Source of the DNA: an uncultured Nitrospiraceae bacterium
Lineage (GTDB): Bacteria > Nitrospirota > UBA9217
DNA length: 58,092 nt
Assembly (NCBI GenBank): GCA_964364055.1
Contig: CAYILT010000001.1
Span: forward strand, 2,584-60,675
Direction of reading: 5' to 3'
The notes beneath the pieces were generated by a model, which ran no database searches, was not told where the DNA came from, and saw only the letters and a list, made by a program, of their open reading frames with translations. Positions 30,426-54,744 of this stretch are shown piece after piece. Position 1 is the stretch's first letter; each line of letters starts with the position of its first letter. A program made the position numbers and the translations under genes.

Positions 30426-30473
30426 CATTCTCAAGAATGAGATAAAGGCGGCGAGGCATTCTTATGAATGAGA
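30426..30473. promoter_or_regulatory. Duplicated 17-bp palindromic site in the divergent promoter region
   Basis: cattctcaagaatgaga (30426-30442) and cattcttatgaatgaga (30457-30473) lie 31 bp apart centre to centre. Each has CATTC/GAATG arms. Confidence 0.35.
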
Positions 30474-30630
30474 CAGACGATATTTTATGTTCAGAACAGC
30501 ATGGCGGCATTTCGCCGGAAGTCATTGGCTTACCGATGTATGCAACAACCTGGACGGGTCTGGTATGAATACTGCATTCTTAAGTTTGAGCAAGATTATG
30601 ATTGTCCATACTATTATTTGATGCTTTGTG

Positions 30631-31434
30631 ATGAACGACATACTGAACATGAATAGGAAAGAAACAGAAATGCTTGCGGTCCTCGTGGCGGCGGAGCGGA
30701 AGGCAGGAGCAGCCATCCTGACCGTATACCGTTCTCCGGTGAGCGTGGAACACAAAGCAGACAGGAGCCCGGTGACTGCCGCGGACAGGCTTTCCCACGA
30801 GATCGTGACCGCTGCCCTGAAGCGGAATTATGCCTACCCGGTCCTGAGCGAAGAAGGGAAGAGCGTCGAATATGACGAGCGCAGGCGGTGGGAGACCTTC
30901 TGGCTCGTGGACCCGCTGGATGGGACCAAGGAGTTCATCAACGGGAACGGGGAATTTACGGTGAACGTCGCCCTCATCCGCGGGGGCGTACCGGTCATGG
31001 GCGCCATCTACATGCCGGTAAAGGACCTTCTGTACTATGCGGTCAAAGGGGGCGGTGCGTACAAGATCGAACATGAGCTGACCGTCCGGCTTCCGCTGAG
31101 GACGGAGCGAAAGGACTTTACCGTGGCGGGGAGCCGTTCCCATGCATCCCGGGAGTTCGAGGATTATGTGCGGACACTCCGCGCCCGGCACGAAGACCTC
31201 GCCTTCGTCTCGGCCGGGAGCTCGCTGAAGTTCTGTCTCGTGGCCGAAGGGGCCGCAGACCTGTATCCGCGCCTGGGTACCACCATGGAATGGGACACCG
31301 CTGCGGGCCAGGTGATCGTTGAAGAGGCGGGCGGCAGGGTGGTCGAAGCGGGAAGCGACAGACCGTTGAGATACAACAAGGCTGATTTGCGGAATCCCCA
31401 TTTTATCGCTACAAGGAGCGGATACCATGAATAA
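30631..31434 (+). CDS. cysQ: 3'(2'),5'-bisphosphate nucleotidase CysQ
   Basis: DRSPVTAAD, WLVDPLDGTKEF and WDTAAG inositol-monophosphatase-family motifs. The size and N-terminus resemble CysQ. Confidence 0.85.
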   Translation: MNDILNMNRKETEMLAVLVAAERKAGAAILTVYRSPVSVEHKADRSPVTAADRLSHEIVTAALKRNYAYPVLSEEGKSVEYDERRRWETFWLVDPLDGTKEFINGNGEFTVNVALIRGGVPVMGAIYMPVKDLLYYAVKGGGAYKIEHELTVRLPLRTERKDFTVAGSRSHASREFEDYVRTLRARHEDLAFVSAGSSLKFCLVAEGAADLYPRLGTTMEWDTAAGQVIVEEAGGRVVEAGSDRPLRYNKADLRNPHFIATRSGYHE

Positions 31435-41065: not shown

Positions 41066-42910
41066 ATGAAAAAGAAGATCCTCATCATAGTCTGCATCTT
41101 TACCCTGCTCGCAGTCGCAGGCGGCGCAGCACTCATTTATTCGATTAAACACATTTCATTGAATTTGAATGAAGTGCTCTTGCTGCACCAAGTTGAGATC
41201 CAGCGGGAGCAGCTCCTGCTGAAGGTTCACCAGGTTCAGGAAGATCTGTATTCGCAAAGCACGAGACATCCGGAAAGCGCCGAGGTCATGATCGGTCGCG
41301 TGAACCGCATGGGGGTGGCGATCACGGACTGCTTTCGTTGCCATCATACGGAGAGCGTTACCGAACGATTGTTAGATCTCCAGCAGCAGATCGGCCAATT
41401 CGATGACCAGCTGACAAAGACCCTGTCGTTAAGAGCGAAAGGCAACCGGTTTCTGGAGGAGCGGGAAGAGGCGACTCTCATTGGGGATTCACTCATCAGC
41501 AAGATCAACACCATGATCATCCTGACCAACCAGATGCTCGCTGAACGGATTGAGCGCTCACGGCAGTCTATGAGGTGGTCAGAACTCATTGTGATAGTGC
41601 TCGTCATTTGCGGCCCCCTGATGGTCGCGGCATTCGGTTTCACGACGCTTTACAGCTTTGCATCTCCGATACAGATCCTCCTCTCTGCAACGAAGCGTTT
41701 GAAGACCGGCGACCTGGATTTCCGGGTTGCCGGCCTGAAGAACGAGTTTGCGGAACTGGCGGTGGCTTTCAATGACATGGCCAGCGCCCTTCGCGAGCGC
41801 CTGAAGGAAATAACGGAGAGCGAACGCCGCTATCGCCTGTTGTTCGAAAGCGCGGCAGACGCCATCTTCATTCTCGATGCCGAAGGGGACGGTGCGGGCA
41901 AGATCGTTTCCGCCAACCGGTCTGCGGCAGCGATGCACGGCTATCCGGTGGAAGAGCTCACGTCGTTGAATATACGGGACATTGATGCTCCTGCTGCGGC
42001 GCTGCAGTCATACGAGCGGATCGAACGGTTGCTGAAAGGAGAATGGATAAAGGCCGAGATCGACCATGTGAAAAAGGACGGCACGGTGTTTCCCGTTGAA
42101 ATCAGCGCCGGAGTGTTCGAGTTCGACAATCACAAGTATATCCTCGCTATCGACCGGGACATGACGGAGCGAAGGCGGGCTGAAGAGCTGCTTCAGCGGG
42201 CGGAGCATCTCAGGACCACCGGTGAACTTGCCGCCGGACTGGCGCACGAGATCAAGAATCCCCTTGCGGGCATCAAGATAACGATGGAGACCCTCGCCGA
42301 GGAATCCTATCTCCTGCAGGAGGACCGGAGCGTTCTTTTCAAGGTCATCGATGAGATCAAACGCATCGACGGATTGATCAAGGACCTGCTGAATTTCGCA
42401 CGGCCTCCCCGGCCGCACTACAGGGCAACTGATGTGAATGCTGTTCTCGATGCAGCCGCGCAGCTGGTGATGCAGAACCGCACCCAAAAGGAGGGCGTCT
42501 CCCGCACGATAGATCTCGTGAAGGATTTCGCGCCTGACCTTCCCGAAATCATCGCCGATCCGATGCAGCTCAGGCAGGTGTTCATGAACCTCCTCATGAA
42601 TGCCGTCGATGCCATGCCCGAATGCGGCTCCGTGATCTTGAGGACATGCTTCGATGAGACCGTGTGCGCTATCACCGTTTCCCTATCCGATTCCGGGAAA
42701 GGGATGGACGCCGCGGGCCTGAGCAAGATATTCCAGCCTTTTTTCACGACCAAGGCAGGGGGGACCGGCCTGGGGCTGGCCATATCTAAACGGCTGATCG
42801 AGGAGCAGGGGGGGCAGATCGCCATCGAAAGCAGCCTGGGGACGGGAACGACGTTCAACATAACACTCCCCTGTAACCGCGGAAAGGAAACACCACGTGA
42901 TCAAGGTTAA
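41066..42910 (+). CDS. Sensor histidine kinase with a CXXCH motif in the periplasmic helical domain
   Basis: TM1, a helical loop of about 150 aa containing DCFRCHH (nt 41330-41344), and TM2. These are followed by HAMP and PAS (RYRLLFESAADAIFILD) domains, the H-box LAHEIKNPLAGI, the N-box NLLMNAVDAM and the G-boxes DSGKGM and GTGLGLAIS. Confidence 0.9.
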   Translation: MKKKILIIVCIFTLLAVAGGAALIYSIKHISLNLNEVLLLHQVEIQREQLLLKVHQVQEDLYSQSTRHPESAEVMIGRVNRMGVAITDCFRCHHTESVTERLLDLQQQIGQFDDQLTKTLSLRAKGNRFLEEREEATLIGDSLISKINTMIILTNQMLAERIERSRQSMRWSELIVIVLVICGPLMVAAFGFTTLYSFASPIQILLSATKRLKTGDLDFRVAGLKNEFAELAVAFNDMASALRERLKEITESERRYRLLFESAADAIFILDAEGDGAGKIVSANRSAAAMHGYPVEELTSLNIRDIDAPAAALQSYERIERLLKGEWIKAEIDHVKKDGTVFPVEISAGVFEFDNHKYILAIDRDMTERRRAEELLQRAEHLRTTGELAAGLAHEIKNPLAGIKITMETLAEESYLLQEDRSVLFKVIDEIKRIDGLIKDLLNFARPPRPHYRATDVNAVLDAAAQLVMQNRTQKEGVSRTIDLVKDFAPDLPEIIADPMQLRQVFMNLLMNAVDAMPECGSVILRTCFDETVCAITVSLSDSGKGMDAAGLSKIFQPFFTTKAGGTGLGLAISKRLIEEQGGQIAIESSLGTGTTFNITLPCNRGKETPRDQG

Positions 42911-44291
42911 CGGCAGAATTCTCTTTATCGACGACGATGAGCTCATCGGGACGATGCTCTCCCGGTCACTGAAGAGCAGCGGATACGAGGTCCGCGTGGA
43001 GACCGGCGCCGAAGGCATTGTAGACAAAATTAAAACATGGTTCCCCGACATCGTGCTCCTCGATATCAACCTGCCGGGACGGAGCGGGATCGACATCCTG
43101 CGGGAGATCGTGGAGCAGAGGGTCGCCACGCAGGTCGTCATGCTGACAGCCGATGATTCTGCCGAGACGGCCGTGAAGGCGATGAAGCTGGGCGCGGCGG
43201 ATTACCTCACCAAGCCGTTCAACATCGAGGAAATGAAGGTCCTTTTCCAAAATATCCTCGAGAGGGTGAATCTGACCCGGGAGGTCGACTATCTCAGAAA
43301 GGTCCGTGCGGAAGCGTTCGATCGTGAGATGATCGGCGTGTCGGGTGTGATGATGGAGCTGAGATCGATGGTGGAAAAAATGGCCGCTGCCCGCGTTTCG
43401 AGCCTTCTCATTACGGGAGAAAGCGGGACCGGCAAGGAGCTCCTGGCCAGGTACTTTCACGGCTTGCTGCACGGCCCTGAGGAAGACAGGAGACGGCCGT
43501 ACATCGCGGTCAATTGCGCGGCGCTGCCGGAGCACCTGCTGGAGAGCGAGCTTTTCGGCTACGAAAAAGGATCGTTCACCGACGCCAAAACGGACAAAAA
43601 GGGCGTTTTCGAGCTTGCGAACGGGGGCGTGATCCTGCTCGACGAGGTCGGTGAAATGCAGCCCGCTCTCCAGAGCAAGCTGCTGCGTTTTCTCGAGGAA
43701 AGACAGGTCAGGCACATCGGGGGAGCTGAGAACATCCCCGTGAACGTCACGGTGATCGCTACGACGAACAAAAACCTTTCCGATGCGGTCCAGAAGGGCG
43801 CATTCAGGAGCGACCTGTTCTACCGGCTGAACAGTTTTCATGTCACCATGCCCTCTCTCCGGGAGCGCAAGGAGGACATTTCGCTGCTGGCCCGGCATTT
43901 CATCTCCTTGTTCCGCAGGAAGTACAAGAAAAAAGGCATTGCGTCCCTTTCACCGGAAGCAGCAAATATCATGGCTGCCTATCAGTGGCCCGGGAACATC
44001 AGGGAACTGAAAAATTGCGTGGAACGACTCGTTGTGCTCGGGAACGAGGGTGAGATACGGGCTGAACATCTGCCGAGGGCGCTGACCAGCATGCTGCCGG
44101 CAACTGACCGATCCGCGGAAAGGCGCTTTGTCCTGCCCGATGCCGGCATATCCCTTGAGGACCTGGAGCGGGACATCATTCTCCAGGCGCTCGAAAAGAC
44201 GAAGCATAACAAGGCGCAGGCCGCAAAACTCCTGAACATCACCTACGACACGCTGAGATACCAGGTAAAGAAATATGGATTGGAAGAATAG
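42897..44291 (+). CDS. Sigma-54-dependent response regulator (NtrC family)
   Basis: REC domain (DIVLLDINLPGRSG). The AAA+ domain has GESGTGKE, ELFGYEKGSFTDA (GAFTGA variant) and GAFRSDLFYRL. C-terminal Fis-type HTH AAKLLNITYDTLRYQ. Confidence 0.92.
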   Translation: MIKVNGRILFIDDDELIGTMLSRSLKSSGYEVRVETGAEGIVDKIKTWFPDIVLLDINLPGRSGIDILREIVEQRVATQVVMLTADDSAETAVKAMKLGAADYLTKPFNIEEMKVLFQNILERVNLTREVDYLRKVRAEAFDREMIGVSGVMMELRSMVEKMAAARVSSLLITGESGTGKELLARYFHGLLHGPEEDRRRPYIAVNCAALPEHLLESELFGYEKGSFTDAKTDKKGVFELANGGVILLDEVGEMQPALQSKLLRFLEERQVRHIGGAENIPVNVTVIATTNKNLSDAVQKGAFRSDLFYRLNSFHVTMPSLRERKEDISLLARHFISLFRRKYKKKGIASLSPEAANIMAAYQWPGNIRELKNCVERLVVLGNEGEIRAEHLPRALTSMLPATDRSAERRFVLPDAGISLEDLERDIILQALEKTKHNKAQAAKLLNITYDTLRYQVKKYGLEE

Positions 44292-44320
44292 GAGCGGACC
44301 GGCAGGTATCTGGAAATGGC

Positions 44321-44698
44321 CTACTCTTTTCCCGCGACGGGGCGGCTGGAAAGTTCCGATACGAGTGCCTGCACCTGGTCGAGGTCGAAAGGCTTCGGAA
44401 AGAAATGGCAACCATTGCTGCGCAGAGATCGCAGTTGTTCTTCGCTTAGAACACCAGCCGTCATGATGATGATCCTGGTCGCCGGTGAACGTTCACGGAA
44501 TATCTTCATCAGCTCGAGGCCGTTCGTGTCGGGAAGCTGCACATCGAGAAAGCAGATGTCATAGGAAGCGCGTTGTATCTCACTGAGGGCATCCTTTCCA
44601 TTGGTGACAGCCGTCACGTCGGTCCCGCCGTGCTTGAATGTCTTGGACAGGGAATATAAAATAAGAGCTTCGTCATCGACAAGCAATATATTCGTCAT
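44321..44698 (-). CDS. Single-domain response regulator (CheY-like)
   Basis: ILLVDDE, ICFLDVQLPDTNG and KPF receiver motifs. Confidence 0.85.
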   Translation of the reverse strand: MTNILLVDDEALILYSLSKTFKHGGTDVTAVTNGKDALSEIQRASYDICFLDVQLPDTNGLELMKIFRERSPATRIIIMTAGVLSEEQLRSLRSNGCHFFPKPFDLDQVQALVSELSSRPVAGKE

Positions 44699-45016
44699 AG
44701 TCCCAGAGTCCTCAGTATATAACCCTTCTTTTCAACTATAGTGAACGCGTTCTGAATTTCGGAACAGCGGCTCTTGCCTTGACCGACCACCTAATCTGAC
44801 CGCAATCCATGCTTCCTGATAGCCGCTTCTAAACACAATAGTTCATATTGATGCAGAAAGTTATTATAGCAAATTCTTCGGTGCAGGTTATCGCATGAGC
44901 ATAAGAGCGCAATTGAGGGGTTTGTAATATTAATAATTGGTCATTTCACCAGACAGTTTGACGATGCAGAGAGCTTTGAGAGAGATTTATTCAACAGAAA
45001 TAAGTAGATAGATATA

Positions 45017-45032
45017 CGGTATGGCAATTGCA
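45017..45032 (+). promoter_or_regulatory. Weak candidate sigma-54 promoter
   Basis: cGGtatggcaaTTGCa has correct GG-to-GC spacing (12 nt) and a perfect TTGCA -12 element. The -24 half is CGGTAT rather than TGGCAC. It lies about 350 nt upstream of the barrel gene. Confidence 0.2.
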
Positions 45033-45086
45033 CTATGTTATAGCATTATAGGATTGTTAGTTATTTGGTATGGCTTGGCACACATA

Positions 45087-45108
45087 GATTATATCCTGAT
45101 TATATCCT
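45087..45108 (+). repeat. Perfect tandem 11-mer (gattatatcct x2)
   Basis: Read directly. One helical turn per unit, inside the AT-rich leader. Confidence 0.6.
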
Positions 45109-45383
45109 GCGCAAACGTGATGTAAACAGCTGACAATTATAATCGCCAATGGATACAGTGAGATCGTGACAGATTTTGCATGCGCTTCCTTTGCGGACGA
45201 GCGGCAGTGCGGTCCCTGTGCCTGCCTTCTTTTCTTTTCTCGTACCGCTTCATCGTTTCCATCGTTTCCTATGTTCCTGTTTGATATCAAAGCACCACCG
45301 TAACGCCGCAGATGGGATAGTCCTGGTCGTGCTGCGGAAAGCAGGATCAGGTGCATCTGCAGTTCCATGGAAAGGAGGTATAG

Positions 45384-46619
45384 ATGATAATGCAGCACTC
45401 AAGAGGTAACGTGCTTGCAGTTCTCTTGTTCATCGCGGGACTCGTCGGTGCGTCAACTGCCGCTGCGGCAGAGCTCCACGGTCAGAGTTCCACGCAATAC
45501 CTGTGGTTCAACGACATATTCACAGGAAAAGAACGGGCAGAACTGGCGGAGTATCTCAACGTGTCCGTCACCAAGATCGACAGCGAAGGCCGTTTGACGA
45601 TCAATGGCTCGGGTCGTGGTACGTACGAGCTTCGTGACGCCGGTGACGGGACCAAGGACCTGAAAGGCCGTCTGTACTACCTGTATGCTGATTATCGAAA
45701 TCTGGCTGACAGGATCGACCTTCGCATTGGACGGCAATTTGTAAACTATGCAGCGGGAAGCGCTCTTGTGGACGGCGGAATGATCGAGTTGAAGAACGCC
45801 GGACCTGTTGCGTTTTCGGTGATGGGCGGCCGCTACGTGTTCTTCGATCTGAACGGAGAAGGCGGGACATCAGATGACAAGGTGTTCGGCATGGCCGCGT
45901 ATCTGCAGGGTGTTAAGGGTACCGATGCCGAGATCAGTTACTTCGTGAAATCCGACAAGGATGGGACCGCCCGAGAGCAGATGGGCTATTCCTTCAAGCA
46001 GTACGTGCTTGACTTCATGAAGGTCTACACCAATGGCCGCTATGACCTCGTGAGCCAAGTGTTCAGCGAAGTGCTGTTCGGGGCGAAGTACTACCCCACG
46101 GCTGACCTGGTGGTCACGGCCGAAACGTACCAAAGCTATCCGACCTTCGATGCTACGTCCATCTACGCTGTCTTCGCCGTGTCCCAGTACCGCGAGAACC
46201 TCCTGCGCGCTGATTATACGATCACGGAAAAGATAGGGCTCAATGCCGGATATACGTGGCAGGACTATGACGGCGACGACGCGAATGTGTTTGAGATCGG
46301 CGGCCGTTTCCTGCCGATCGACCGGCTGCGGATTAATGTGAATTACGACAAGCGGAACGGCTATGGCGGGAAACTGAACGGGTATGCCGTTGAGGCTTTC
46401 TTCGACCAGTCCAAGCAACTCGAACTGTCCGCCGGAGTGCATCATGATGTCTATGAGCGCGATCGCTCGACCGGCCAGGAGACCGCAAGCAAATACTGGA
46501 TCGGTGCAAAATATCAGATCGAAAAGAACATCTCCGCCCTGGCGCGGATAGAGGACAATGTGAACGCCCGGTATAATCATGATAAACAGGGACGCATGGT
46601 CCTCAACTACAGTTTCTAG
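45384..46619 (+). CDS. Outer-membrane beta-barrel (porin-like) protein
   Basis: Signal peptide ...STAAAAE, GGAGG upstream, composition rich in Y/G/D/N with alternating hydrophobics, and the terminal residues VLNYSF. Confidence 0.7.
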   Translation: MIMQHSRGNVLAVLLFIAGLVGASTAAAAELHGQSSTQYLWFNDIFTGKERAELAEYLNVSVTKIDSEGRLTINGSGRGTYELRDAGDGTKDLKGRLYYLYADYRNLADRIDLRIGRQFVNYAAGSALVDGGMIELKNAGPVAFSVMGGRYVFFDLNGEGGTSDDKVFGMAAYLQGVKGTDAEISYFVKSDKDGTAREQMGYSFKQYVLDFMKVYTNGRYDLVSQVFSEVLFGAKYYPTADLVVTAETYQSYPTFDATSIYAVFAVSQYRENLLRADYTITEKIGLNAGYTWQDYDGDDANVFEIGGRFLPIDRLRINVNYDKRNGYGGKLNGYAVEAFFDQSKQLELSAGVHHDVYERDRSTGQETASKYWIGAKYQIEKNISALARIEDNVNARYNHDKQGRMVLNYSF

Positions 46620-46634
46620 AAAGGGGGGTCATCA

Positions 46635-47528
46635 GTGAAAAAGATACTTATAGCAATCGTGCTTCTGGGATGCGCCCTGGTGTATCTCCAGCCGCAGTCT
46701 TTCGGCGAACGGGCAGCATTGGCCGAGACCGTTGCGGCACCGGCCCCCCAGGAAGCCGTTCCTGCCGCTGTGAACGCGGCGCAGCCCCCTGCGGCAACTG
46801 CTCCTCAGGCCGCGGAGCCGGTACCTGTGGCGGCGCCTGTAATCGCCCCGGCGGCACCGCCGGCAATGAAGGCCGAGCCGGCTCCGAAGGCGCCGGCGGC
46901 CTCAAGCAAACAAGCGCATGCAGATTATGCAAAGATGGCCATCAAAGAATGCAACACCTGTCACAAGGCCGAAGGTATTGCGCCCAATCATGATGCGGAC
47001 TTCATCTCGCGCGGGCACAGCGTCCTGGCGGGCAGGGCAGGGAGCAACTGCAGCCAGTGTCATCAGCAGAACTGGTGCCTTGACTGTCACCAGGGTGGGG
47101 GCGATGGTACACCTACGAGCAAGGGCAACTATGGCCGCGACTATAAGCCGAAGAGCCACCGCAGCGACTTCATCAGTATGCATCCGATCAAGGCCCAGGA
47201 CAATCCGCAGACGTGCAATCGCTGCCATGAAACAAAATACTGCAATGACTGCCACAGCCGCTTCCCCAAGGGCTCGCTGCGGATCAAGTCGCATATGATG
47301 CTGGGTGTGAACGGGCAGCAGTACACCGCTGTGTTCGGAGAACATTCCACGGAGGCGCGCAGAAATCTTCAATCCTGCCAGGCGTGCCATCCGGAAGGGG
47401 ACGTCTGCATACAGTGCCACAGCAGCGGCAAGGTCCGACCGCATCCGAGAAGCTGGAAAGCGGGCAATTTCAAGAGCAGAACGAATGAAAAAGTGTGCTT
47501 GAAGTGTCATCTACCGGGAACGTACTAG
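46635..47528 (+). CDS. Octaheme c-type cytochrome with N-terminal anchor and Pro/Ala-rich linker
   Basis: Eight CXXCH motifs: CNTCH, CSQCH, CLDCH, CNRCH, CNDCH, CQACH, CIQCH, CLKCH. The N-terminus MKKILIAIVLLGCAL carries a possible lipobox. The linker is about 65 aa of A/P/V/Q. Confidence 0.9.
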   Translation: MKKILIAIVLLGCALVYLQPQSFGERAALAETVAAPAPQEAVPAAVNAAQPPAATAPQAAEPVPVAAPVIAPAAPPAMKAEPAPKAPAASSKQAHADYAKMAIKECNTCHKAEGIAPNHDADFISRGHSVLAGRAGSNCSQCHQQNWCLDCHQGGGDGTPTSKGNYGRDYKPKSHRSDFISMHPIKAQDNPQTCNRCHETKYCNDCHSRFPKGSLRIKSHMMLGVNGQQYTAVFGEHSTEARRNLQSCQACHPEGDVCIQCHSSGKVRPHPRSWKAGNFKSRTNEKVCLKCHLPGTY

Positions 47529-47560
47529 AACTATAATAATTTGGTTAAGGAGGATACGCC

Positions 47561-49966
47561 ATGCGTTACGCGAAGTTAAGTATCTTGTTGCTCTGTGTCC
47601 TGACCGCAGTGGTATCACTTTACGGTTGCGGATCATCGAGCAAGGAAGGAAAAGCATCGGGATCGGTCGCCGGCAGCGTCGGAGACACGATGTGCCGGCA
47701 ATGCCACAGCGCCGTTGTCGATCCGCTTACCGGCGAAGGCATTATTGCCCAGTATGACAATACATCGCCCCACAGGGATTCTCCTTATGCGAACAACGGC
47801 AACGGCTGTGAAGCCTGTCATGGCGGCGGCGCCCAGCACAACGGCGTGGGGCCAATTCCCTATGTGAATCCGTTCGCTGGGAACGGGACCCGGTGCATAG
47901 CTTGCCACACCGGAAAATATCAGACCAACGCACCGACCAAGTTTGCAGACTCTCTGCATGGGCAGATGACGATCGAGACCGGCGGCTCCTGCCGGCGGTG
48001 CCATACCCATGAAGGCGCGGTTCTCGGCGCGTACAGCGGCCTGACCGGGTCCGGCGGCGTCATGGACAATGCGTCGTACCAGGGTGCCGTACCGCTTCAG
48101 AGGGAGTTCGGTGTGTTCCAGTGCGGGACCTGCCACCAGCACGGCGGCGGGCTGCGCACGGTCAAGGCGCGGGACACAAGCGGCAATGTGGTCGCCTGGA
48201 ACCCGAGCAAGAGCTATTTGTTAAATGACCAGTTCAACCTCTGCACCGGGTGCCATACGCTCAAGAGCTATGACGGGAACACGGTGCTGGCTTCGGGAAA
48301 TGTTGTCTCTTACGGGAGCTTCACCGTCGCGACCGAGAAGGTCGGCCACCATGATACGTCCTGGTACCGCGTAATCGCAACCACGCACCTGAACAACGCG
48401 GACAACCCGGCTGCCGGCGGCATCTCGGGCTATGTGGTCCGCATCCCCAAGACGGCGGACGATGCCTATGCCAGCACCACGAACCCCAATGCGAAGCCGT
48501 GCTTCGACTGCCATGGGCACGAGGCAAGGACCATGACCGCCTACACGAATCCGTCCGTGACGACCGGCACCAGAGCTTATAATCCGGCGAACGAGACGAT
48601 CTGGACGCAATGGGCCAAGTCTGCCCACGCGGGGCAGCTATTGAAGGTGAAGATGGCTGCGGTCGGCATCAGCACCGGCGCTGCGGCTGTTGATACGGCC
48701 ATGACCACCACGGTAGGTGCGCCGACGTCGGATCCTTGGTTCCATTACGACTGGAGCGCTACCAACCGCCAGGATTGTCAGCGGTGCCATACGGCGACCG
48801 GCGTCTCAAACTTCCTGAAGGACCCTGCAACCTATGATAAGACGAAGAACGACTTCCAGCATCTGGCCGGCTGGACGGTCTCGAGCCGGGCGTCGAAACA
48901 GCGCGAGTTGCTGTATTGCTGGGGCTGCCATGAGAACGTGAGCGCTGACAAAGGCGGCCTGCGCAACCCGGGCGCGCTGAGCTTTACCTACACCAACGGG
49001 GCCACGGCAAGTTATCCCGACGCCTCATCCGCGAACGTCTGCATCGCCTGCCACAGCGGCCGTGAGACGGGCGACAGCATCAAGAATTCGACGGGGGCTT
49101 TCTCGAACTTGAGCTTCATCAACTCCCACTACCTCAGTGCCGGCGGCACGGTCTTCGCCAAGACAGGGTATACCTTTGACGGGCGGGATTACTCAATTCC
49201 GGCCAGCGACCTGCACGACAAGATCGGCATGGGTGTTGTCACGGGAGACGCCAACTTCGACGCTGTTCGCGGCAACTACACCAGCGGCCCCTGCGTCGCT
49301 TGTCACTTCGGCAGCAACGACGGTTCGCATACGCTGAGCCCCTATACGCAGTACTCGCCGACCGACTTGGCCCTCAACCCGGTATGCGTGAACTGCCACA
49401 CCACCCGCGGCGCAGGCTCCAATGCCGCGATCGCCTGGCTGGGGGACGACACCACGGCGGCCACGTTCCAGGGCTCGACCCACAAGGCGCGCTATCAGGC
49501 AGCCCTTGAGGCGCTGCGCGTGCAGCTGGCTGCTAAAGGTTACTACTTCTATGAAAGGCATCCCTATTTCTACACGGCGGCCTACAACACTGGGTATACC
49601 GAATCCGGGGCCTGCACGGACAATCTGCCGGTCAAAAACTGGCAGACAGGCGGGACCTCCACGTTTACATGGAGCGGGACCAGCTGCACCTCGGTGGCCG
49701 GTACGACCGGAACCGTAGGCACGGGCAGTGTCAACATGGGGGCGGCCTTCAACTACAACCTCCTGAAAAATGATCCGGGTGGTGTGGCCCACAACCGTCG
49801 CTATACCCGGCGGCTCATCTATGACGCCATCGATCAAATGGACGACGGCACTCTCAACTACTCCGTCTCCGCCACACTCAACGCGGTAACGGACGTCTAC
49901 AAGGTCAGCGCCACATCGTATCTGATCAAGTCCGGAGCCACGACATCGGCGGAGGAACGGTACTAA
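47561..49966 (+). CDS. Dodecaheme c-type cytochrome lipoprotein
   Basis: Lipobox SLYGC. Twelve CXXCH motifs: CRQCH, CEACH, CIACH, CRRCH, CGTCH, CTGCH, CFDCH, CQRCH, CWGCH, CIACH, CVACH, CVNCH. AAGGAGG lies upstream. Confidence 0.9.
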   Translation: MRYAKLSILLLCVLTAVVSLYGCGSSSKEGKASGSVAGSVGDTMCRQCHSAVVDPLTGEGIIAQYDNTSPHRDSPYANNGNGCEACHGGGAQHNGVGPIPYVNPFAGNGTRCIACHTGKYQTNAPTKFADSLHGQMTIETGGSCRRCHTHEGAVLGAYSGLTGSGGVMDNASYQGAVPLQREFGVFQCGTCHQHGGGLRTVKARDTSGNVVAWNPSKSYLLNDQFNLCTGCHTLKSYDGNTVLASGNVVSYGSFTVATEKVGHHDTSWYRVIATTHLNNADNPAAGGISGYVVRIPKTADDAYASTTNPNAKPCFDCHGHEARTMTAYTNPSVTTGTRAYNPANETIWTQWAKSAHAGQLLKVKMAAVGISTGAAAVDTAMTTTVGAPTSDPWFHYDWSATNRQDCQRCHTATGVSNFLKDPATYDKTKNDFQHLAGWTVSSRASKQRELLYCWGCHENVSADKGGLRNPGALSFTYTNGATASYPDASSANVCIACHSGRETGDSIKNSTGAFSNLSFINSHYLSAGGTVFAKTGYTFDGRDYSIPASDLHDKIGMGVVTGDANFDAVRGNYTSGPCVACHFGSNDGSHTLSPYTQYSPTDLALNPVCVNCHTTRGAGSNAAIAWLGDDTTAATFQGSTHKARYQAALEALRVQLAAKGYYFYERHPYFYTAAYNTGYTESGACTDNLPVKNWQTGGTSTFTWSGTSCTSVAGTTGTVGTGSVNMGAAFNYNLLKNDPGGVAHNRRYTRRLIYDAIDQMDDGTLNYSVSATLNAVTDVYKVSATSYLIKSGATTSAEERY

Positions 49967-50010
49967 CACAGAGGCAGCCAGTGAAAGCTAATACTGGAAT
50001 GACGACATCG

Positions 50011-50044
50011 GCCCCGCATCGTTCTGATGCGGGGCTTTTTCTTT
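50011..50044 (+). terminator. Rho-independent terminator after the dodecaheme gene
   Basis: gccccgcatc-gttct-gatgcggggc followed by ttttt. Confidence 0.85.
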
Positions 50045-50192
50045 GTGCGCTGGGCGGCTGACGCATCTGGAGGTGAAAATTCTCGGGGGAAGGACTTTCA
50101 CGGGGGGGGGAGCGATCCCTGTCTATTCGATGTGGTCGAGCAGGAAACGCTGGTTTCGTTTCTGGTGTGGGATTAATGCAGCGGATGTATGA

Positions 50193-51392
50193 ACGGGATC
50201 CGCTCCCTCACAGGATCGAGGGGCAGACAACCTGCGCTCGGCGGCATATGTTGGGTCGGACCGTTGCGGGGGCTGCCACAGCGCTATACACGACGGCTGG
50301 GCCAAGACCGCCCATACTATGAAGCTGCGGCTCGGCTCACTCGAAGCGAATTACATAAATGATGGAGACACCTCGGGTCGCTCCGATTTTTTCCAGGCGG
50401 CAGAATTTGATCTTGCCACCGCTCCTTCTGCATCGGCAGCCTTCGGAGTTTATGGCGCCAGTGCGCCGAAGATAGGGCATGATTTCGGCGGTTCCTATGT
50501 GAAACTCGGCGCAGCCAAGTACTATGTCAGCTACACATTGGGAGGCGCTGGTTGGGATGCCAACAGCGACGGGCTCGTGTTGAACGCAGAGGCGCAGTGG
50601 AAGCGATATATCACCAAGATCGGAAAAAGCAATTACATCCTTCCGGTGCAATTTAATGCCCAGACGCAGAAATACGTCACCTATGACGCAACCAAATGGT
50701 ACAACGCCGACTATACGACGAGAGAGCCGGTCAAGAACGATTCCTATGAGCGCCGCTGCGCCGGTTGCCATGTGACCGGTCTGCGGGTCTCCCTCGACGG
50801 CGATGAGTGGGTGATGAACTATGCCGACATCTCCGTCGCGTGCGAGGCGTGCCACGGTCCCGGCGGCAGGCGTGCAACGGCTCCGACCAAGAGCAACATC
50901 ATTAACCCCGCCACGATGGTAACGGACAAAGACCTCAATGGCGACGGTGCAATAGATCAGGTTGACAACGTTATCGTCCGGAACTATGTATGTTTCCCCT
51001 GCCATTCCCGTGGAGCGGGCAAGTATTCCGCGGCGGGCGTCAAGCTTTCCTACTTCAGCAGGGATGATGGTTCAGGCAAACCGCTCATGTATATGCCCGG
51101 TCTTGACTGGAAGGAATATTACGACATATCGACCACCGCCGGAGACTATTGGGGCGGAGACCCGACCAGCGGAGATTTTGTCGCGTCATTGGGTCATCAC
51201 CAGCAGCAGCAGGATTTTGCCTATGGATCCCATCGCGCGGACAAGTCGTTTGATCATGAATGCTTTGTGTGCCATGACCTGCACAGCAGGACGAATAAGA
51301 ACAGCGTAACGACCGGGATAACGACCGGCAGCGGCGTTAAGGTAATTACGCAGAACGATGACAACACGCTCTGTCTTGCGTGCCACGCATGA
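50193..51392 (+). pseudogene. Multiheme c-type cytochrome lacking a recognisable start and signal peptide, ending at the transposase gene
   Basis: Six CXXCH motifs: CGGCH upstream of the track ORF Met, then CAGCH, CEACH, CFPCH, CFVCH, CLACH. The frame is closed by TGA at 50190-92 with no ATG/GTG/TTG before the first heme motif. The last CLACH lies one codon (Ala) before the stop. Confidence 0.6.
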
Positions 51393-51397
51393 TCATA

Positions 51398-52653
51398 ATG
51401 AGCCAAAAGGAGTCAAATCGGCTGCATATTATTCGTCAGACCATAGATAAGGCGATAACCCAGGATCGGGCAGCAGACATGCTCGGATTAACGGACCGGC
51501 AAGTAAGAAGAATCGCCAGAAGCGTCAAACTGGAAGGTGACGCAGGCATTTGCCACAAGACCCGAGGAAAGAGGGCCCATAACCGGATAGCTGATAAGGT
51601 AAAGGACAAAGCCGTCATCCTGTGCCGGGACACGTACAAAGAATTTGGCCCCACCCATGCCAGCGAAAAGCTTTTAAAGAACCACAGGATCAAGGTTAGC
51701 GAAGAGACGCTTCGGGGATGGTTTCAAGAGGAACATATTCCCTACAAGAGCCGCAAGAAGAGGCCGCACCGTCAGTGGCGCGAACGAAAGCCGCATCGGG
51801 GCGAGATGGTCCAGATGGACGGATCCCATCATGACTGGTTTGAAGGGCGAGGCCCGTGGTGTGTTCTCATGGGTTATGTTGACGATGCCACCGGCACCGT
51901 GTATGCCCGTTTTTATGAGTATGAGGGGACACACTGCCGGCCATGGACGGTTTCAAGCGGTATATCAGGCTCTACGGGCTTCCCCAGTGCGTCTATCTGG
52001 ACAGGCACTCAACGTACAAGGTCACGGCCAAACAGACCATCGAAGAGGAGTTAAACGATATCCAGCCGATGAGCCATTTCGAGAAGAGCTTGGCAACGCT
52101 TGGCGTAGAGGTCATTCATGCCTATTCCCCCCAGGCCAAGGGACGGGTTGAACGGCTGTTTGGGACATTCCAGGACCGGGTTGTCAAAGAGATGCGGCTT
52201 GCCGGGGTAACGAATATAGCGGAAGGCAATACGTTCTTGGATGGCTATTTGCCGGAGTTCAACAGGAAGTACGCCAAGGAAGCGGCACAGAAAGCCGATT
52301 TCCATCGGCCGATCGTGAATAAGCGAGCGCTCGACACGATTCTCTCCATCAAGACCGAACGGGCACTACGGAACGACTTTACCATCGCCCACAACAAGAA
52401 GCTTTACCAGATCAAGAGTAACATTAGGGCGAAGAAGCTGACCGTGGAAGAAAGAACCGACGGAACCATGCGCATAATCCATAACGGCCAGCAGCTGAAG
52501 TATCAAGAAATAATCGCTCGACCCGTAAGGACAGAGAAATCAGCAGAGAAACCTAGGCCCATAAGAGTGTGGACGCCGTCTGATTCACACCCCTGGAAGT
52601 CTCCGGCAAAAGCAATGGTCAAAGGAAGAACACAACTTCAGGCAACATCTTAA
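51398..52653 (+). mobile_element. Transposase gene (HTH plus rve/DDE integrase core, ISNCY/IS481-like), frameshifted
   Basis: MSQKESNRLHIIRQ...LGLTDRQVRRI HTH, then GEMVQMDGSHHDWFE...YVDDATG. The frame breaks at the G-run 51924-51928 and resumes as DTLPAMDGFKRYIRLYGLPQCVYLDRHSTY...SPQAKGRVERL in ORF 51943..52653. Confidence 0.75.
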
Positions 52654-53766: not shown

Positions 53767-54744
53767 ATGAAACGATACGGCATCATGGTCCTTGCGCTGT
53801 TCATCCTCGTCTCCGGCTGTACGGAACAGCGGACCGTACAGAAGGCCGAGACCATCATGGGGACCCAGGTCTCCCTCACGGTGTCGGCGGACTCCGCGGG
53901 TGCGAGCGAGGCGGCGATTGAGGCCGGCATGGCCGAGATCCGGCGGCTCGACTCCATGATGTCGCTCTACAAGGACGACAGCGAGATCACGCGCGTGAAC
54001 CTCTCCGCCGGCAAGACCCCGGTGAAGGTCTCCTCCGAGATGCTCGAGATGGTGGAGTTTGCAGTGGAAGCGTCGAAGCTCACGAACGGGGCGTTCGATG
54101 TGACCATCGGTCCGCTCGTGGTCCTGTGGCAGATGCGGCTGAAGGAAGGGAAGGTCCCCACCGACGAGGAGATCAAGCGTATACTACCGCTCGTTGGATA
54201 CCGTCAGATCGTGCTTGACAAGAAGGCATCGACGATATTCCTCAGGAAGCCCGGCATGATCATGGATTTCGGCGGATGCGCAAAGGGGTATGCCGCGGAC
54301 CGGATCAGGGCGCTGTTCCGAGATCGCGGCATTGACAACGCCATCATTTCGCTCGCCGGCGATATATGGGTGATGGGCCGTCGGGAGGACGGCAAGCCCT
54401 GGCGTATCGGCGTTCAGCATCCCCGGGAGAAGGACAAGACCCTGACCGTCCTTGAGCTTCGCGACAAATACATTTCCACTTCCGGGGATTATGAACGGTT
54501 CGTCATCAGGGAGAAAAAACGGTACCATCACATTATCGACCCCCGCACCGGAAAACCATCACCGGGTGTCATCTCCGTGACCTTGGTGGGAGACAAGGGC
54601 GCTCTCATCGACCCGCTTACAACGGCCCTCTTCATCCTTGGACCTGACGAGGGGATGAGACTCGTGAAGAAAATCGGCGCTGAGGTCATTTTTGTGGATG
54701 ATGATGGTACGGTATCGAAAACGGAGGGCATAAAACTGCCGTGA
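53767..54744 (+). CDS. apbE: FAD:protein FMN transferase (ApbE family) lipoprotein
   Basis: Lipobox LVSGC. MGTQVSLTV, FDVTIGPLV, GGCAKGYAAD, TSGDYERF and HHIIDPRTG blocks are typical of ApbE. Confidence 0.85.
   Translation: MKRYGIMVLALFILVSGCTEQRTVQKAETIMGTQVSLTVSADSAGASEAAIEAGMAEIRRLDSMMSLYKDDSEITRVNLSAGKTPVKVSSEMLEMVEFAVEASKLTNGAFDVTIGPLVVLWQMRLKEGKVPTDEEIKRILPLVGYRQIVLDKKASTIFLRKPGMIMDFGGCAKGYAADRIRALFRDRGIDNAIISLAGDIWVMGRREDGKPWRIGVQHPREKDKTLTVLELRDKYISTSGDYERFVIREKKRYHHIIDPRTGKPSPGVISVTLVGDKGALIDPLTTALFILGPDEGMRLVKKIGAEVIFVDDDGTVSKTEGIKLP

What the first reader, a model, noticed from the sequence alone, without database searches (positions are those of the whole stretch)
45384..49966. 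Porin-like barrel, octaheme and dodecaheme lipoprotein: a candidate porin-cytochrome outer-membrane electron conduit
Three co-directional genes, separated by only 15 and 32 bp, are closed by a strong terminator at 50011. Their products are:
- A 411-aa signal-peptide protein that ends in NYSF and has beta-barrel-like composition.
- A 297-aa protein with exactly 8 CXXCH motifs.
- An 801-aa lipoprotein (lipobox LYGC) with exactly 12 CXXCH motifs.

The order and heme counts match the Geobacter sulfurreducens ombB-omaB-omcB porin-cytochrome module (barrel, 8-heme periplasmic, 12-heme surface lipoprotein). The flanking genes and repeat families do not look like Geobacter. The octaheme also has an unusual tether, described separately. 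About 170 aa after the last heme motif of the dodecaheme protein are heme-free and rich in T/G/S/Y. Whether this is a true homolog or an independent assembly of the same architecture cannot be decided by eye.
Basis: partly seen in the sequence, partly recalled or inferred. Interest (0 to 1): 0.8.

Follow-up and report, generated by a model that had tools for sequence, protein, structure and literature searches.

The report
Geobacter-type porin-cytochrome conduit in Nitrospirota
These three genes are a true relative of the Geobacter OmbB-OmaB-OmcB machine, which passes electrons through the outer membrane to minerals; here it sits in an anaerobic groundwater Nitrospirota bacterium, so it is a new host and minor variant of a known system, not a new kind of system.

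Summary

- **What is there.** Window 45384-49966 carries three co-directional genes with 15- and 32-bp gaps, closed by a terminator at 50010-50036. They encode a Cys-free 411-aa outer-membrane barrel, a 297-aa protein with 8 CXXCH, and an 801-aa lipoprotein with 12 CXXCH.
- **True homologs.** They match G. sulfurreducens OmbB (50% identity), OmaB (61% over the heme domain) and OmcB (43%, 99% coverage, all 12 heme motifs aligned). The heme-free C-terminal domain is also shared with OmcB.
- **Large barrel.** AlphaFold predicts 22 strands.
- **Host.** The host is Nitrospirota; the closest genome is GTDB class UBA9217, an anaerobic aquifer lineage. In a simple tree the barrel and octaheme nest among Geobacterales sequences, and the block has lower GC3 than its neighbours, which suggests old horizontal acquisition. 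dN/dS of 0.10-0.22 shows the genes are kept.
- **Differences from Geobacter.**
  - A roughly 70-aa Ala/Pro-rich extension follows the octaheme's signal peptide; it is confined to a small clade.
  - A sensor kinase with a heme-c motif and a sigma-54 regulator replace the TetR regulator.
  - The public gene call missed the octaheme.

The direction of electron flow and the substrate were not determined.

Verdict: new member of a known kind; moderate interest.

The parts
45384..46619 (+). OmbB-family porin-like outer-membrane beta-barrel. It is 411 aa, with a signal peptide over residues 1-29, no Cys and a C-terminal NYSF.
   Evidence: It is 50% identical over its full length to G. sulfurreducens OmbB. 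The search found 726 homologs, none assigned to a Pfam or NCBIfam family. AlphaFold gives pLDDT 78.7 and 22 strands. Foldseek's best TM-scores are to 22-24-strand barrels. dN/dS against L001 is 0.10.
46635..47528 (+). OmaB-family periplasmic octaheme c-type cytochrome. It is 297 aa with a GTG start and a Sec signal peptide over roughly residues 1-24. The heme domain covers roughly residues 96-297.
   Evidence: It has 8 CXXCH motifs and is 61% identical to OmaB over the heme domain. The family has 16 invariant His and 16 invariant Cys, enough for bis-His ligation of 8 hemes. The start codon lies 15 bp after the barrel's stop codon, as in more than 50 related loci. dN/dS for the heme domain is 0.08. 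The gene is not called in the public record and the exact protein is absent from the protein database.
46710..46919 (+). Ala/Pro-rich, heme-free N-terminal extension of the octaheme (residues 26-95, 61% Ala+Pro). It lies between the signal-peptide cleavage region and the conserved KQxHxxYAKM motif.
   Evidence: The extension is absent from OmaB and from almost all homologs of 220-248 aa. It is present only in the window, in L001 and in a handful of metagenome proteins (P0244-P0248, P0250). The ends of the segment are semi-conserved. dN/dS for signal peptide plus linker is 0.31. AlphaFold shows no structure there, but that model is of low confidence. The sequence match to the linker of membrane-anchored cytochrome cy (6xkw_Y) covers low-complexity sequence only.
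47561..49966 (+). OmcB-family outer-membrane dodecaheme lipoprotein cytochrome. It is 801 aa with the lipobox Cys at residue 23 and a conserved heme-free C-terminal domain over roughly residues 614-801.
   Evidence: It has 12 CXXCH motifs. It is 43% identical, with 99% coverage, to G. sulfurreducens OmcB. All 12 motifs, 25 His and 25 Cys are invariant across OmcB, OmcC and relatives; it matches the PS51257 lipobox pattern; and the C-terminal domain is 41% identical to that of OmcB. dN/dS is 0.22.
50010..50036 (+). Intrinsic terminator that closes the three-gene operon.
   Evidence: It has a 12-bp stem with 8 G-C pairs, a 3-nt loop and a T run.
45017..45032 (+). Candidate sigma-54 promoter (-24/-12), CGGTATGGCAATTGCA, with GG-N10-GC spacing. 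This is an inference and a weak one.
   Evidence: It lies in a block that is perfectly conserved with L001, within an intergenic region that is 92% identical overall. The -24 half is poor. A much better site, TGGCACaacttATGC, precedes the barrel gene in Nitrospirae locus L022, next to a sigma-54 regulator homolog. A consensus scan of the window is not enriched over chance.
41066..42910 (+). Sensor histidine kinase with a periplasmic domain that carries one c-type heme motif (CFRCH). It is the probable regulator of the operon; this is inferred from linkage.
   Evidence: Pfam finds HAMP, PAS, HisKA and HATPase domains. The sequence reads TM1, a helical loop of about 145 aa with the CXXCH, then TM2. 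The kinase, its CXXCH and its position next to the triad are all conserved in L001 (88% identical).
42897..44291 (+). NtrC-type sigma-54-dependent response regulator, the probable activator of the operon. This is inferred from linkage.
   Evidence: Pfam finds Response_reg, Sigma54_activat and HTH_8 domains. It is 85% identical and syntenic in L001. Sigma-54 regulator homologs also lie near the cluster in Nitrospirota loci L022 and L061, whereas 20 of the other loci, nearly all Geobacterales, carry a TetR (OrfR-like) regulator instead.
44321..44698 (-). Stand-alone receiver-domain protein between the regulator genes and the operon.
   Evidence: Pfam finds Response_reg. It is conserved and syntenic in L001 (88% identical).

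Best explanation
The three genes encode a Geobacter-type porin-cytochrome (Pcc) complex of the OmbB-OmaB-OmcB family.

**Proposed mechanism.**
- The 22-strand barrel sits in the outer membrane.
- The octaheme is exported by Sec. Its heme domain is sheathed in the barrel lumen, with one end facing the periplasm.
- The dodecaheme lipoprotein caps the barrel on the cell surface.
- Together they form a chain of about 20 bis-His hemes that carries electrons across the outer membrane.

**Host and direction.** The host is an anaerobic aquifer Nitrospirota bacterium whose closest genome belongs to GTDB class UBA9217. The most likely direction is therefore outward, to extracellular Fe(III)/Mn(IV) minerals, humics or a syntrophic partner.

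**Regulation and history.** Expression is probably controlled by the adjacent kinase with a heme-c motif and its sigma-54 activator, not by the TetR regulator used in Geobacter. The block was probably acquired long ago from Desulfuromonadota/Geobacterales and has been kept under purifying selection.

**Shown:** homology of all three proteins; conservation of every heme motif and of enough His for bis-His ligation; the lipobox; the large barrel; the operon structure; the host phylum; purifying selection.

**Inferred:** assembly into a heterotrimer; placement of the octaheme inside the barrel; direction of electron flow and substrate; the regulatory link; horizontal transfer.
For: **Homology to the characterised system.** Identity to G. 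sulfurreducens is 50% for OmbB, 61% for OmaB and 43% for OmcB. [quoted passage not shown]

**Cofactor sites.**
- All 12 heme motifs of the dodecaheme align with OmcB and OmcC; 25 His and 25 Cys are invariant; the lipobox is shared.
- The octaheme family has 16 invariant His and 16 invariant Cys.

**Barrel size.** The model has 22 strands at pLDDT 78.7. Its best overlaps are with 22-24-strand barrels that are known to enclose a plug or a passenger.

**Conserved architecture.**
- The barrel-octaheme gene pair, with the same 15-bp gap, recurs in more than 50 loci.
- The full triad is present in 55 of 80 loci anchored on the dodecaheme, including at least 5 other Nitrospirota MAGs.

**Selection.** dN/dS is 0.10, 0.12 and 0.22 against a genome whose copy of the region is 87% identical at the DNA level.

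**Host.** PepN on the same contig is 89%, 87% and 85% identical to three Nitrospirota MAGs and 67-75% to other Nitrospirota MAGs. The closest genome is GTDB c__UBA9217. That class is described as carrying the Wood-Ljungdahl pathway and dsrAB, i.e. as anaerobic (PMC11033732).

**Function of the family.** The isolated Geobacter complex is a 20-heme heterotrimer that moves electrons across a liposome bilayer to Fe(III) (PMC4282303).

**Acquisition.** The window clade nests among Geobacterales sequences in a neighbour-joining tree. GC3 of the kinase-regulator-triad block is 0.68-0.77, against 0.81-0.85 for other genes.
Against: - No experiment exists for this locus or for any Nitrospirota homolog.
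- No Pcc structure has been solved; no homolog is detectable by sequence in the PDB. Placing the octaheme inside the barrel therefore rests on analogy with MtrAB, a system unrelated in sequence.
- The AlphaFold model of the octaheme was unusable (pLDDT 45), and no co-fold could be run.
- No inner-membrane quinol oxidase or periplasmic shuttle is encoded in the window (one search finds no other multiheme gene).
- The direction of electron flow cannot be read from sequence.
- The sigma-54 promoter candidate is weak.
- The tree is a midpoint-rooted neighbour-joining tree, and the taxonomic labels of MAGs can be wrong.
- An IS element and a truncated cytochrome gene lie just downstream, which shows the neighbourhood is in flux.
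Confidence: 0.88

Rival explanations
1. The complex is the same, but it runs inward. It takes electrons from extracellular Fe(II)/Mn(II), a cathodic mineral or a syntrophic partner into the periplasm, supporting lithotrophic growth. This has been proposed for the porin-cytochrome complexes of the Nitrospirota 'Ca. Manganitrophus'.
For: - Multiheme conduits are in principle reversible.
- Other Nitrospirota ('Ca. Manganitrophaceae') carry porin-dodecaheme complexes proposed for Mn(II) oxidation (PMC9040806).
- The lineage's Wood-Ljungdahl autotrophy would be compatible with electron uptake or direct interspecies electron transfer.
Against: - Homologs of OmbB-OmaB-OmcB were absent from all 73 neutrophilic Fe(II)-oxidiser genomes surveyed (PMC5566968).
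- Every characterised member acts in reduction (PMC4282303, PMC4589669).
- No 'Ca. Manganitrophus' locus appeared among 80 genome loci holding OmcB relatives.
- The closest host lineage is an anaerobe with dsrAB, not an aerobic metal oxidiser.
Confidence: 0.15
2. The octaheme is a membrane-tethered subunit. Its signal peptide is not cleaved, so the roughly 70-aa Ala/Pro-rich linker ties the heme domain to the inner membrane, as in cytochrome cy. This would couple or shuttle electrons between inner-membrane donors and the outer-membrane barrel.
For: - The -1 residue of the predicted cleavage site is Gly in the window (SFG|E), where most relatives have Ala.
- Fully extended, the linker could in principle span much of the periplasm; this is my estimate from its length.
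- The N-terminal region matches the anchor-plus-linker of cytochrome cy (6xkw_Y, E 4.6e-06).
- The linker is retained, with semi-conserved ends, in at least 6 related proteins.
Against: - The signal peptide is homologous, position by position, to those of short-form relatives that end in canonical SYA|E, SLA|E or SFA|E cleavage sites. Other long-form proteins (P0246-P0248) also keep an Ala-ending site.
- The hydrophobic core is about 15 residues, typical of a cleaved signal peptide.
- Cys13 fails the lipobox rule and is not conserved.
- The match to cytochrome cy is over low-complexity sequence.
Confidence: 0.1
3. The locus is a decaying remnant of a horizontally acquired island and no longer functions in this host.
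For: - An IS-like transposase (51380-52653) and a cytochrome gene truncated at both ends (50043-51392) lie directly downstream.
- GC3 of the block is lower than in the rest of the window.
- The closest genome, which is 97.7% complete, shows only a paralogous cluster and not this triad.
Against: - All three ORFs are intact, with ribosome-binding sites and a terminator.
- Every heme motif and every axial-ligand candidate is kept.
- dN/dS of 0.10-0.22 at dS of about 0.4 shows sustained purifying selection since the split from the CAYPOT genome.
- The regulators are co-conserved.
Confidence: 0.04
4. The architecture was assembled independently (convergently), or the proteins form a soluble periplasmic reductase system and not an outer-membrane conduit.
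For: Pfam and NCBIfam give only generic cytochrome c7 / class III hits and no family for the barrel.
Against: - All three G. sulfurreducens Pcc proteins match over their full length at 43-61% identity, in the same gene order and with the same spacing.
- The barrel is predicted with 22 strands.
- The dodecaheme has a lipobox shared with OmcB.
Confidence: 0.01

Closest known systems
Geobacter sulfurreducens Pcc complex, OmbB-OmaB-OmcB (and its duplicate OmbC-OmaC-OmcC)
   Same: - The gene order is the same: barrel, 8-heme periplasmic cytochrome, 12-heme lipoprotein.
- The 15-bp barrel-to-octaheme gap is the same.
- Identity is 50%, 61% and 43%.
- All heme motifs, the lipobox and the heme-free C-terminal domain of OmcB are conserved.
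   Different: - The host phylum is Nitrospirota, and the closest genome is class UBA9217.
- There is no tandem duplication.
- A kinase with a heme-c motif, a sigma-54 regulator and a receiver protein replace the TetR regulator OrfR.
- The octaheme carries a roughly 70-aa Ala/Pro-rich N-terminal extension.
- The OmcB homolog has an insertion of 18 aa or more, rich in T/G/S and containing two extra Cys, in its C-terminal domain.
- AlphaFold gives 22 strands, against the 20 predicted by HMM in the literature (PMC4282303).
Shewanella MtrCAB (and MtoAB/PioAB)
   Same: The logic is the same: a periplasmic multiheme cytochrome sheathed by a large barrel and capped by a surface lipoprotein cytochrome, giving a 20-heme wire.
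   Different: - There is no detectable sequence relationship. Profile searches of the PDB with the barrel and dodecaheme alignments find no Mtr chain, and the NCBIfam DmsE and MtrC models score far below their cut-offs.
- The heme counts are 8+12, not 10+10.
- The gene order is barrel first.
- The literature treats the two systems as independently evolved (PMC4282303, PMC4245776).
Porin-cytochrome (PCC) complexes of the Nitrospirota 'Ca. Manganitrophus'
   Same: The phylum is the same, and the pairing is again a porin with a dodecaheme cytochrome proposed to act in extracellular electron transfer (PMC9040806).
   Different: - Those complexes are proposed for Mn(II) oxidation in aerobes.
- No Manganitrophus locus was recovered among the relatives of the barrel or the dodecaheme.
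- Homology was not tested directly because no Manganitrophus sequences were in hand.
Membrane-anchored cytochrome cy (Rhodobacter), for the linker only
   Same: An N-terminal hydrophobic segment is followed by a long Ala/Pro-rich flexible linker and then a c-type cytochrome domain (6xkw_Y match).
   Different: - Cytochrome cy keeps an uncleaved anchor and has a single heme.
- Here the hydrophobic segment is homologous to cleavable signal peptides, and the domain behind the linker is an octaheme of the OmaB family.

Membership tests
Pcc (OmbB-OmaB-OmcB) porin-cytochrome family | A porin-like outer-membrane beta-barrel homologous to OmbB, with 18-22 predicted trans-membrane strands | tested here: met
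   It is 50% identical to OmbB over 399 residues (E 6e-146). AlphaFold gives 22 strands at pLDDT 78.7. It has a signal peptide and a C-terminal aromatic residue.
Pcc (OmbB-OmaB-OmcB) porin-cytochrome family | [quoted passage not shown] | tested here: met
   It has 8 CXXCH motifs and is 61% identical to OmaB across the heme domain. The family has 16 invariant His and 16 invariant Cys. It has a Sec-type signal peptide and no lipobox.
Pcc (OmbB-OmaB-OmcB) porin-cytochrome family | An outer-membrane 12-heme lipoprotein cytochrome homologous to OmcB | tested here: met
   It is 43% identical with 99% coverage. All 12 motifs fall in the same alignment columns, and the lipobox Cys is invariant.
Pcc (OmbB-OmaB-OmcB) porin-cytochrome family | The genes are clustered in the order barrel, periplasmic cytochrome, outer-membrane cytochrome | tested here: met
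   The order is the same and the gaps are 15 and 32 bp. The same layout is seen in L071 and in more than 50 other loci.
Pcc (OmbB-OmaB-OmcB) porin-cytochrome family | A TetR-family regulator (OrfR/OrfS) immediately upstream. This is typical of Geobacter loci and is not part of the complex. | tested here: not met
   There is no TetR homolog. A kinase, a sigma-54 response regulator and a receiver protein sit upstream instead. TetR is found in 20 of the other loci, nearly all Geobacterales.
Pcc (OmbB-OmaB-OmcB) porin-cytochrome family | The three proteins form a 20-heme heterotrimer that transfers electrons across a lipid bilayer | not testable with these tools
   This is known for the Geobacter complex (PMC4282303). 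Here it can only be inferred from homology. Co-folding was not available, and the octaheme model failed.
Pcc (OmbB-OmaB-OmcB) porin-cytochrome family | A physiological role in extracellular Fe(III) reduction | not testable with these tools
   The host is uncultured. Its lineage is described as anaerobic, which is compatible with this role but does not prove it.
MtrCAB / MtoAB / PioAB | Sequence homology to the MtrB barrel and to the decaheme cytochromes MtrA and MtrC | tested here: not met
   Single-sequence and profile searches of the PDB find no Mtr chain. TIGR03508 scores 35.5 bits against a cut-off of 192, and TIGR03507 scores 28.2 against 209. The heme counts are 8 and 12, not 10 and 10.
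Cyc2 fused porin-cytochrome | A single polypeptide with an N-terminal monoheme domain fused to a barrel of about 16 strands | tested here: not met
   The barrel has no Cys and no heme motif, is predicted with 22 strands, and the cytochromes are separate genes.

The most novel reading that the evidence does not exclude
In this small Nitrospirota-associated clade, the Ala/Pro-rich N-terminal extension of the OmaB homolog may be a functional periplasm-spanning arm. It might even be anchored in the inner membrane if the signal peptide is not cleaved. Such an arm would physically link the outer-membrane conduit to inner-membrane electron donors and stand in for the soluble periplasmic shuttles used by Geobacter. 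Together with a kinase that senses through a heme-c group and a sigma-54 activator, this would be a differently wired, redox-sensing version of the Pcc system, possibly able to take electrons up as well as export them.
Probability: 0.12. Interest if true: 0.6.

Novelty: new member of a known kind. Interest (0 to 1): 0.35.

Why it matters
- **Ecology.** It gives an uncultured, anaerobic aquifer Nitrospirota lineage a complete, selectively maintained Geobacter-type outer-membrane electron conduit. The one genomic survey of aquifer Nitrospirota that I read discusses nitrogen and sulphur metabolism and does not mention multiheme cytochromes or extracellular electron transfer. Mineral respiration or direct interspecies electron transfer by these organisms may therefore be overlooked in groundwater iron, manganese and carbon budgets.
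- **Annotation.** The middle gene of such conduits can be lost in automatic annotation. In the public record an antisense ORF was called in its place, which would make marker-based surveys under-count complete clusters.
- **Mechanism.** The long-linker OmaB variant and the regulatory module (a kinase with a heme-c motif plus a sigma-54 activator) are concrete, testable differences from the Geobacter model.

Tried and rejected
1. **Curated families.** Pfam and NCBIfam have no family for the barrel and give only generic or sub-threshold hits for the cytochromes. This says nothing about identity.
2. **PDB by sequence.** Single-sequence and profile searches find no solved homolog of any of the three proteins. 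The cytochrome cy hit is to the low-complexity linker only.
3. **AlphaFold on the octaheme.** With a 37-sequence alignment the model reached pLDDT 45 and pTM 0.21, so it is unusable and no fold search was run on it. The tools offered no way to co-fold the barrel with the octaheme.
4. **Lipoprotein reading of the octaheme (LLGC).** Rejected. It fails the PS51257 pattern, the Cys is not conserved, and the segment aligns with cleavable signal peptides.
5. **Sigma-54 consensus scan of the window.** It is not enriched over shuffles (20 matches against 25 expected). The candidate at 45017-45032 has three mismatches to the consensus in its -24 half, so I offer it only as a lead.
6. **Rfam scan of the window.** No hits.
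7. **Link to 'Ca. Manganitrophus'.** The family-wide barrel and dodecaheme scans recovered no Manganitrophus locus. Direct comparison was not possible because no sequences were in hand.
8. **Literature.** I found no paper in the held library that describes OmbB-OmaB-OmcB homologs in Nitrospirota. NCBI's pipeline already names some Nitrospirae homologs 'OmcB' (P0169).
9. **PDB search with the kinase's periplasmic domain.** Only chance-level hits.

Full report
**1. The observation**

Three + strand ORFs occupy 45384-46619 (411 aa), 46635-47528 (297 aa, GTG start) and 47561-49966 (801 aa). They are separated by 15 and 32 bp, and each is preceded by a Shine-Dalgarno-like sequence. The heme-motif counts are exactly 0, 8 and 12 CXXCH, with no variant motifs. 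Sixteen of the octaheme's 17 Cys are in motifs.

The barrel protein has no Cys, a signal peptide (…STAAAA|ELHG) and ends in NYSF. The dodecaheme's N-terminus matches the PROSITE lipobox pattern, and so does OmcB at the aligned position. A strong intrinsic terminator lies at 50010-50036.

The heme-free tail of the dodecaheme is 188 aa. It is only slightly richer in T/G/S/Y than the rest of the protein.

**2. Homolog or look-alike**

It is a homolog. Curated libraries were uninformative, and no homolog has a solved structure. The large protein database gave the answer.

- The dodecaheme finds 573 relatives. One of them, from G. sulfurreducens subsp. ethanolicus, is the protein NCBI names 'C-type polyheme cytochrome OmcB' (43% identity, 99% coverage, E 3.8e-169).
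- The contig that encodes it (L071) shows the textbook arrangement TetR-403aa-236aa(8 heme)-742aa(12 heme), followed by TetR-403aa-236aa-768aa. [quoted passage not shown] 2014 (PMC4282303).
- Against that locus, the window's barrel is 50% identical over its full length.
- The octaheme is 61% identical over its whole heme domain.
- All 12 heme motifs of the dodecaheme fall in the same alignment columns as those of OmcB and OmcC. A further 13 His and the lipobox Cys are invariant. The heme-free C-terminal domain is 41% identical to that of OmcB.
- The octaheme family has 16 invariant His and 16 invariant Cys, which is what eight bis-His hemes require.

**3. The barrel**

AlphaFold2 with a 12-sequence alignment gives mean pLDDT 78.7 and 22 beta-strands. 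Foldseek's highest TM-scores (0.54-0.59) are to the 22-24-strand barrels FimD, PapC, PirA and Cir, all of which enclose a plug or passenger. The literature's HMM prediction for OmbB is 20 strands, and 18-22 across the family (PMC4282303).

**4. How conserved the architecture is**

In about 60 genome loci found through the barrel, the barrel gene is followed by an 8-heme (rarely 9-heme) gene, usually after the same 15-bp gap. The third gene varies: 7, 9, 10 or 12 hemes. This agrees with Shi et al. 2014, who found that the outer cytochromes do not co-evolve with the other two components (PMC4245776).

In 80 loci found through the dodecaheme, 55 hold all three components. These include at least 5 other Nitrospirota MAGs, as well as Syntrophales and Desulfobulbaceae.

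The related genomes also carry a second, deeply divergent cluster (L002 and L003). It has a barrel at 43-44% identity, an 8-heme cytochrome at 50% identity and a 7-heme lipoprotein.

**5. The host and the history of the locus**

*Host.*
- The window comes from Hainich groundwater; an identical 15-kb contig was assembled from well H52.
- The aminopeptidase N gene, 30 kb away on the same contig, is 89% identical to Hainich-H41-bin277-1, 87% to the CAYPOT MAG and 85% to DeMMO3_8. It is 67-75% identical to other Nitrospirota MAGs, and most other taxa fall at or below 62%.
- Hainich-H41-bin277-1 is GTDB c__UBA9217, g__JAAXXJ01, and has 57.7% GC, the same as the window. That class is described as an aquifer lineage with the Wood-Ljungdahl pathway and dsrAB, i.e. 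anaerobic (PMC11033732).

*Evidence that the block was acquired.*
- The triad's nearest relative is at 92% identity, in the CAYPOT MAG. Identity then drops straight to about 60-63% in Geobacterales and Desulfuromonadales.
- In a neighbour-joining tree of barrel plus octaheme, the window clade, together with one other Nitrospirae MAG, nests among Geobacterales. It is closer to them than G. sulfurreducens itself is.
- GC3 of the kinase-regulator-triad block is 0.68-0.77, against 0.81-0.85 for other genes in the window.
- The block shared with the CAYPOT genome runs only from about 40.5 to 49.9 kb.
- The 97.7%-complete H41-bin277-1 genome yielded only the paralogous cluster.

Together these suggest an accessory block acquired from Desulfuromonadota before the two Nitrospirota genomes diverged. 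This is an inference: the tree is simple and MAG labels can be wrong.

*Evidence that the genes are kept.* dN/dS against the CAYPOT copy is 0.10 for the barrel, 0.12 for the octaheme (0.08 in the heme domain) and 0.22 for the dodecaheme, at dS of about 0.4.

**6. What differs from Geobacter**

*(a) An extension on the octaheme.* The octaheme is 297 aa, against about 230 aa in most relatives. The extra roughly 70 residues are 61% Ala+Pro. They lie between the signal peptide and the conserved KQxHxxYAKM motif.
- Only the window, the CAYPOT genome and six metagenome proteins (P0244-P0248, P0250) have this long form. A few Geobacterales have a 16-aa insertion at the same point.
- The ends of the segment are semi-conserved, and dN/dS for signal peptide plus linker is 0.31.
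- The N-terminal hydrophobic segment aligns with cleavable signal peptides (…QQQSYA|EK). Its Cys13 fails the lipobox rule and is not conserved. The simplest reading is therefore a cleaved protein with a flexible periplasmic arm, not a membrane tether.
- The window has Gly at position -1, which leaves a small chance that the peptide is not cleaved.

*(b) Regulation.* Twenty of the other loci, nearly all Geobacterales, have an OrfR-like TetR gene upstream. The window and the CAYPOT genome instead have a histidine kinase, an NtrC-type sigma-54 activator and a receiver protein.
- The kinase's periplasmic loop carries a CXXCH motif that is conserved in the CAYPOT ortholog. This suggests a heme-c sensor of the general kind known from Geobacter chemoreceptors (PMC3460858).
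- A GG-N10-GC element lies at 45017-45032 in a perfectly conserved block. It is a weak sigma-54 candidate.
- A much better site, TGGCAC-N5-ATGC, precedes the barrel gene in Nitrospirae locus L022.

*(c) An insertion in the dodecaheme.* Its C-terminal domain has an insertion of 18 aa or more, rich in T/G/S and containing two extra Cys.

*(d) A missed gene.* The public gene call for this contig missed the octaheme and called an antisense 202-aa ORF in its place. The exact protein is absent from the 5.8-billion-protein database.

**7. Mechanism**

By homology to the characterised Geobacter complex, the products should form a conduit across the outer membrane. [quoted passage not shown] Placing the octaheme inside the barrel rests on analogy with MtrAB and could not be tested here: the octaheme model failed and no multimer prediction was available.

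Direction cannot be read from sequence. Outward flow is favoured because:
- the host lineage is anaerobic;
- all characterised members of the family are reductive;
- OmbB-OmaB-OmcB homologs were absent from 73 Fe(II)-oxidiser genomes (PMC5566968).

Inward flow remains possible, whether as electron uptake or as direct interspecies electron transfer.

**8. Verdict**

It is a new member of a known family in an unusual host, with a few lineage-specific features that could be tested. It is not a new kind of system.

Pcc clusters were already known in six phyla (PMC4245776), and NCBI already labels some Nitrospirae homologs as OmcB, so a specialist would be interested but not surprised. The main value lies in three things: the possible ecological role in groundwater, the annotation gap, and the long-linker OmaB variant.

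Noticed in passing
window 41066-42910 (+): The sensor histidine kinase upstream of the operon has a helical periplasmic loop of about 145 aa between two transmembrane segments. The loop carries a single c-type heme motif (CFRCH, about residues 89-93). The motif is conserved in the 88%-identical ortholog in L001. This is a candidate heme-c redox or ligand sensor. It has no Pfam domain and no PDB match for the loop.
   Followed up: partly
window 46902-47510 (-) versus 46635-47528 (+): The public record for this contig (ENA ERZ1292616, Hain_H52) calls a 202-aa antisense ORF where the octaheme gene lies and omits the octaheme. The exact 297-aa protein is absent from the 5.8-billion-protein collection. 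This is probably a gene-caller error, perhaps caused by the GTG start and the low-complexity Ala/Pro region.
   Followed up: yes
window 50043-51392 (+): This is a fragment of another multiheme cytochrome. It has 6 CXXCH motifs, counting a CGGCH upstream of the first ATG, and Pfam hits to cytochrome c554 and Paired_CXXCH. It has no start codon or signal peptide at its 5' end, and its 3' end is cut exactly where the transposase-like genes begin. It has no relative in any of the related loci.
   Followed up: partly
window 51380-52653 (+): Two overlapping ORFs in different frames look like a frameshifted IS transposase: a 224-aa ORF with an HTH_23 domain and a 236-aa ORF with no Pfam hit. They are inserted just downstream of the operon, and synteny with the CAYPOT genome ends at about 49.9 kb.
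   Followed up: partly
L002 7803-11383 and L003 7944-11368: The related Nitrospirota genomes (CAYPOT MAG and Hainich-H41-bin277-1) carry a second, deeply divergent Pcc-type cluster. It has a barrel (43-44% identical), an 8-heme cytochrome (50% identical, 227 aa, no linker) and a 7-heme lipoprotein of about 495 aa. A histidine kinase homolog lies upstream in both loci, and a sigma-54 regulator homolog in L003.
   Followed up: partly
window 41066-49966 versus the rest of the window: GC3 of the kinase, the regulator and the three conduit genes is 0.68-0.77. Six other genes in the window have GC3 of 0.81-0.85. The 685-bp region upstream of the barrel gene is only 43.5% GC.
   Followed up: partly
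window 49550-49700 (dodecaheme residues about 664-712): The C-terminal domain has a lineage-specific insertion rich in T/G/S (…TGGTSTFTWSGTSCTSVAGTTGTVGTGS…). Two extra Cys lie in or next to it, and they could form a disulfide. OmcB, OmcC and the Nitrospirae homolog in L022 lack the insertion.
   Followed up: no
window 53767-54744 (+): A lipoprotein of the ApbE family (FAD:protein FMN transferase; Pfam E 1.5e-88) lies about 4 kb downstream of the conduit. Enzymes of this family flavinylate periplasmic or extracytoplasmic redox proteins. No link to the conduit was established.
   Followed up: no
window 28996-33214: A bifunctional ATP-sulfurylase/APS-kinase gene (31427-33214) lies near a sulfotransferase-family gene (28996-30258). 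Together they suggest a PAPS-dependent sulfation module unrelated to the finding.
   Followed up: no
L153 (JGI 3300038409 contig, 45 kb): A metagenome contig carries a long-linker octaheme (P0246). Its triad lies after tig-clpP-clpX-engB-mscS with no adjacent regulator, and is followed by an amino-acid-kinase gene on the opposite strand, as in L001. Further downstream is a 907-aa MtrC-domain-like cytochrome with rotamase genes. Its taxonomy was not determined.
   Followed up: no
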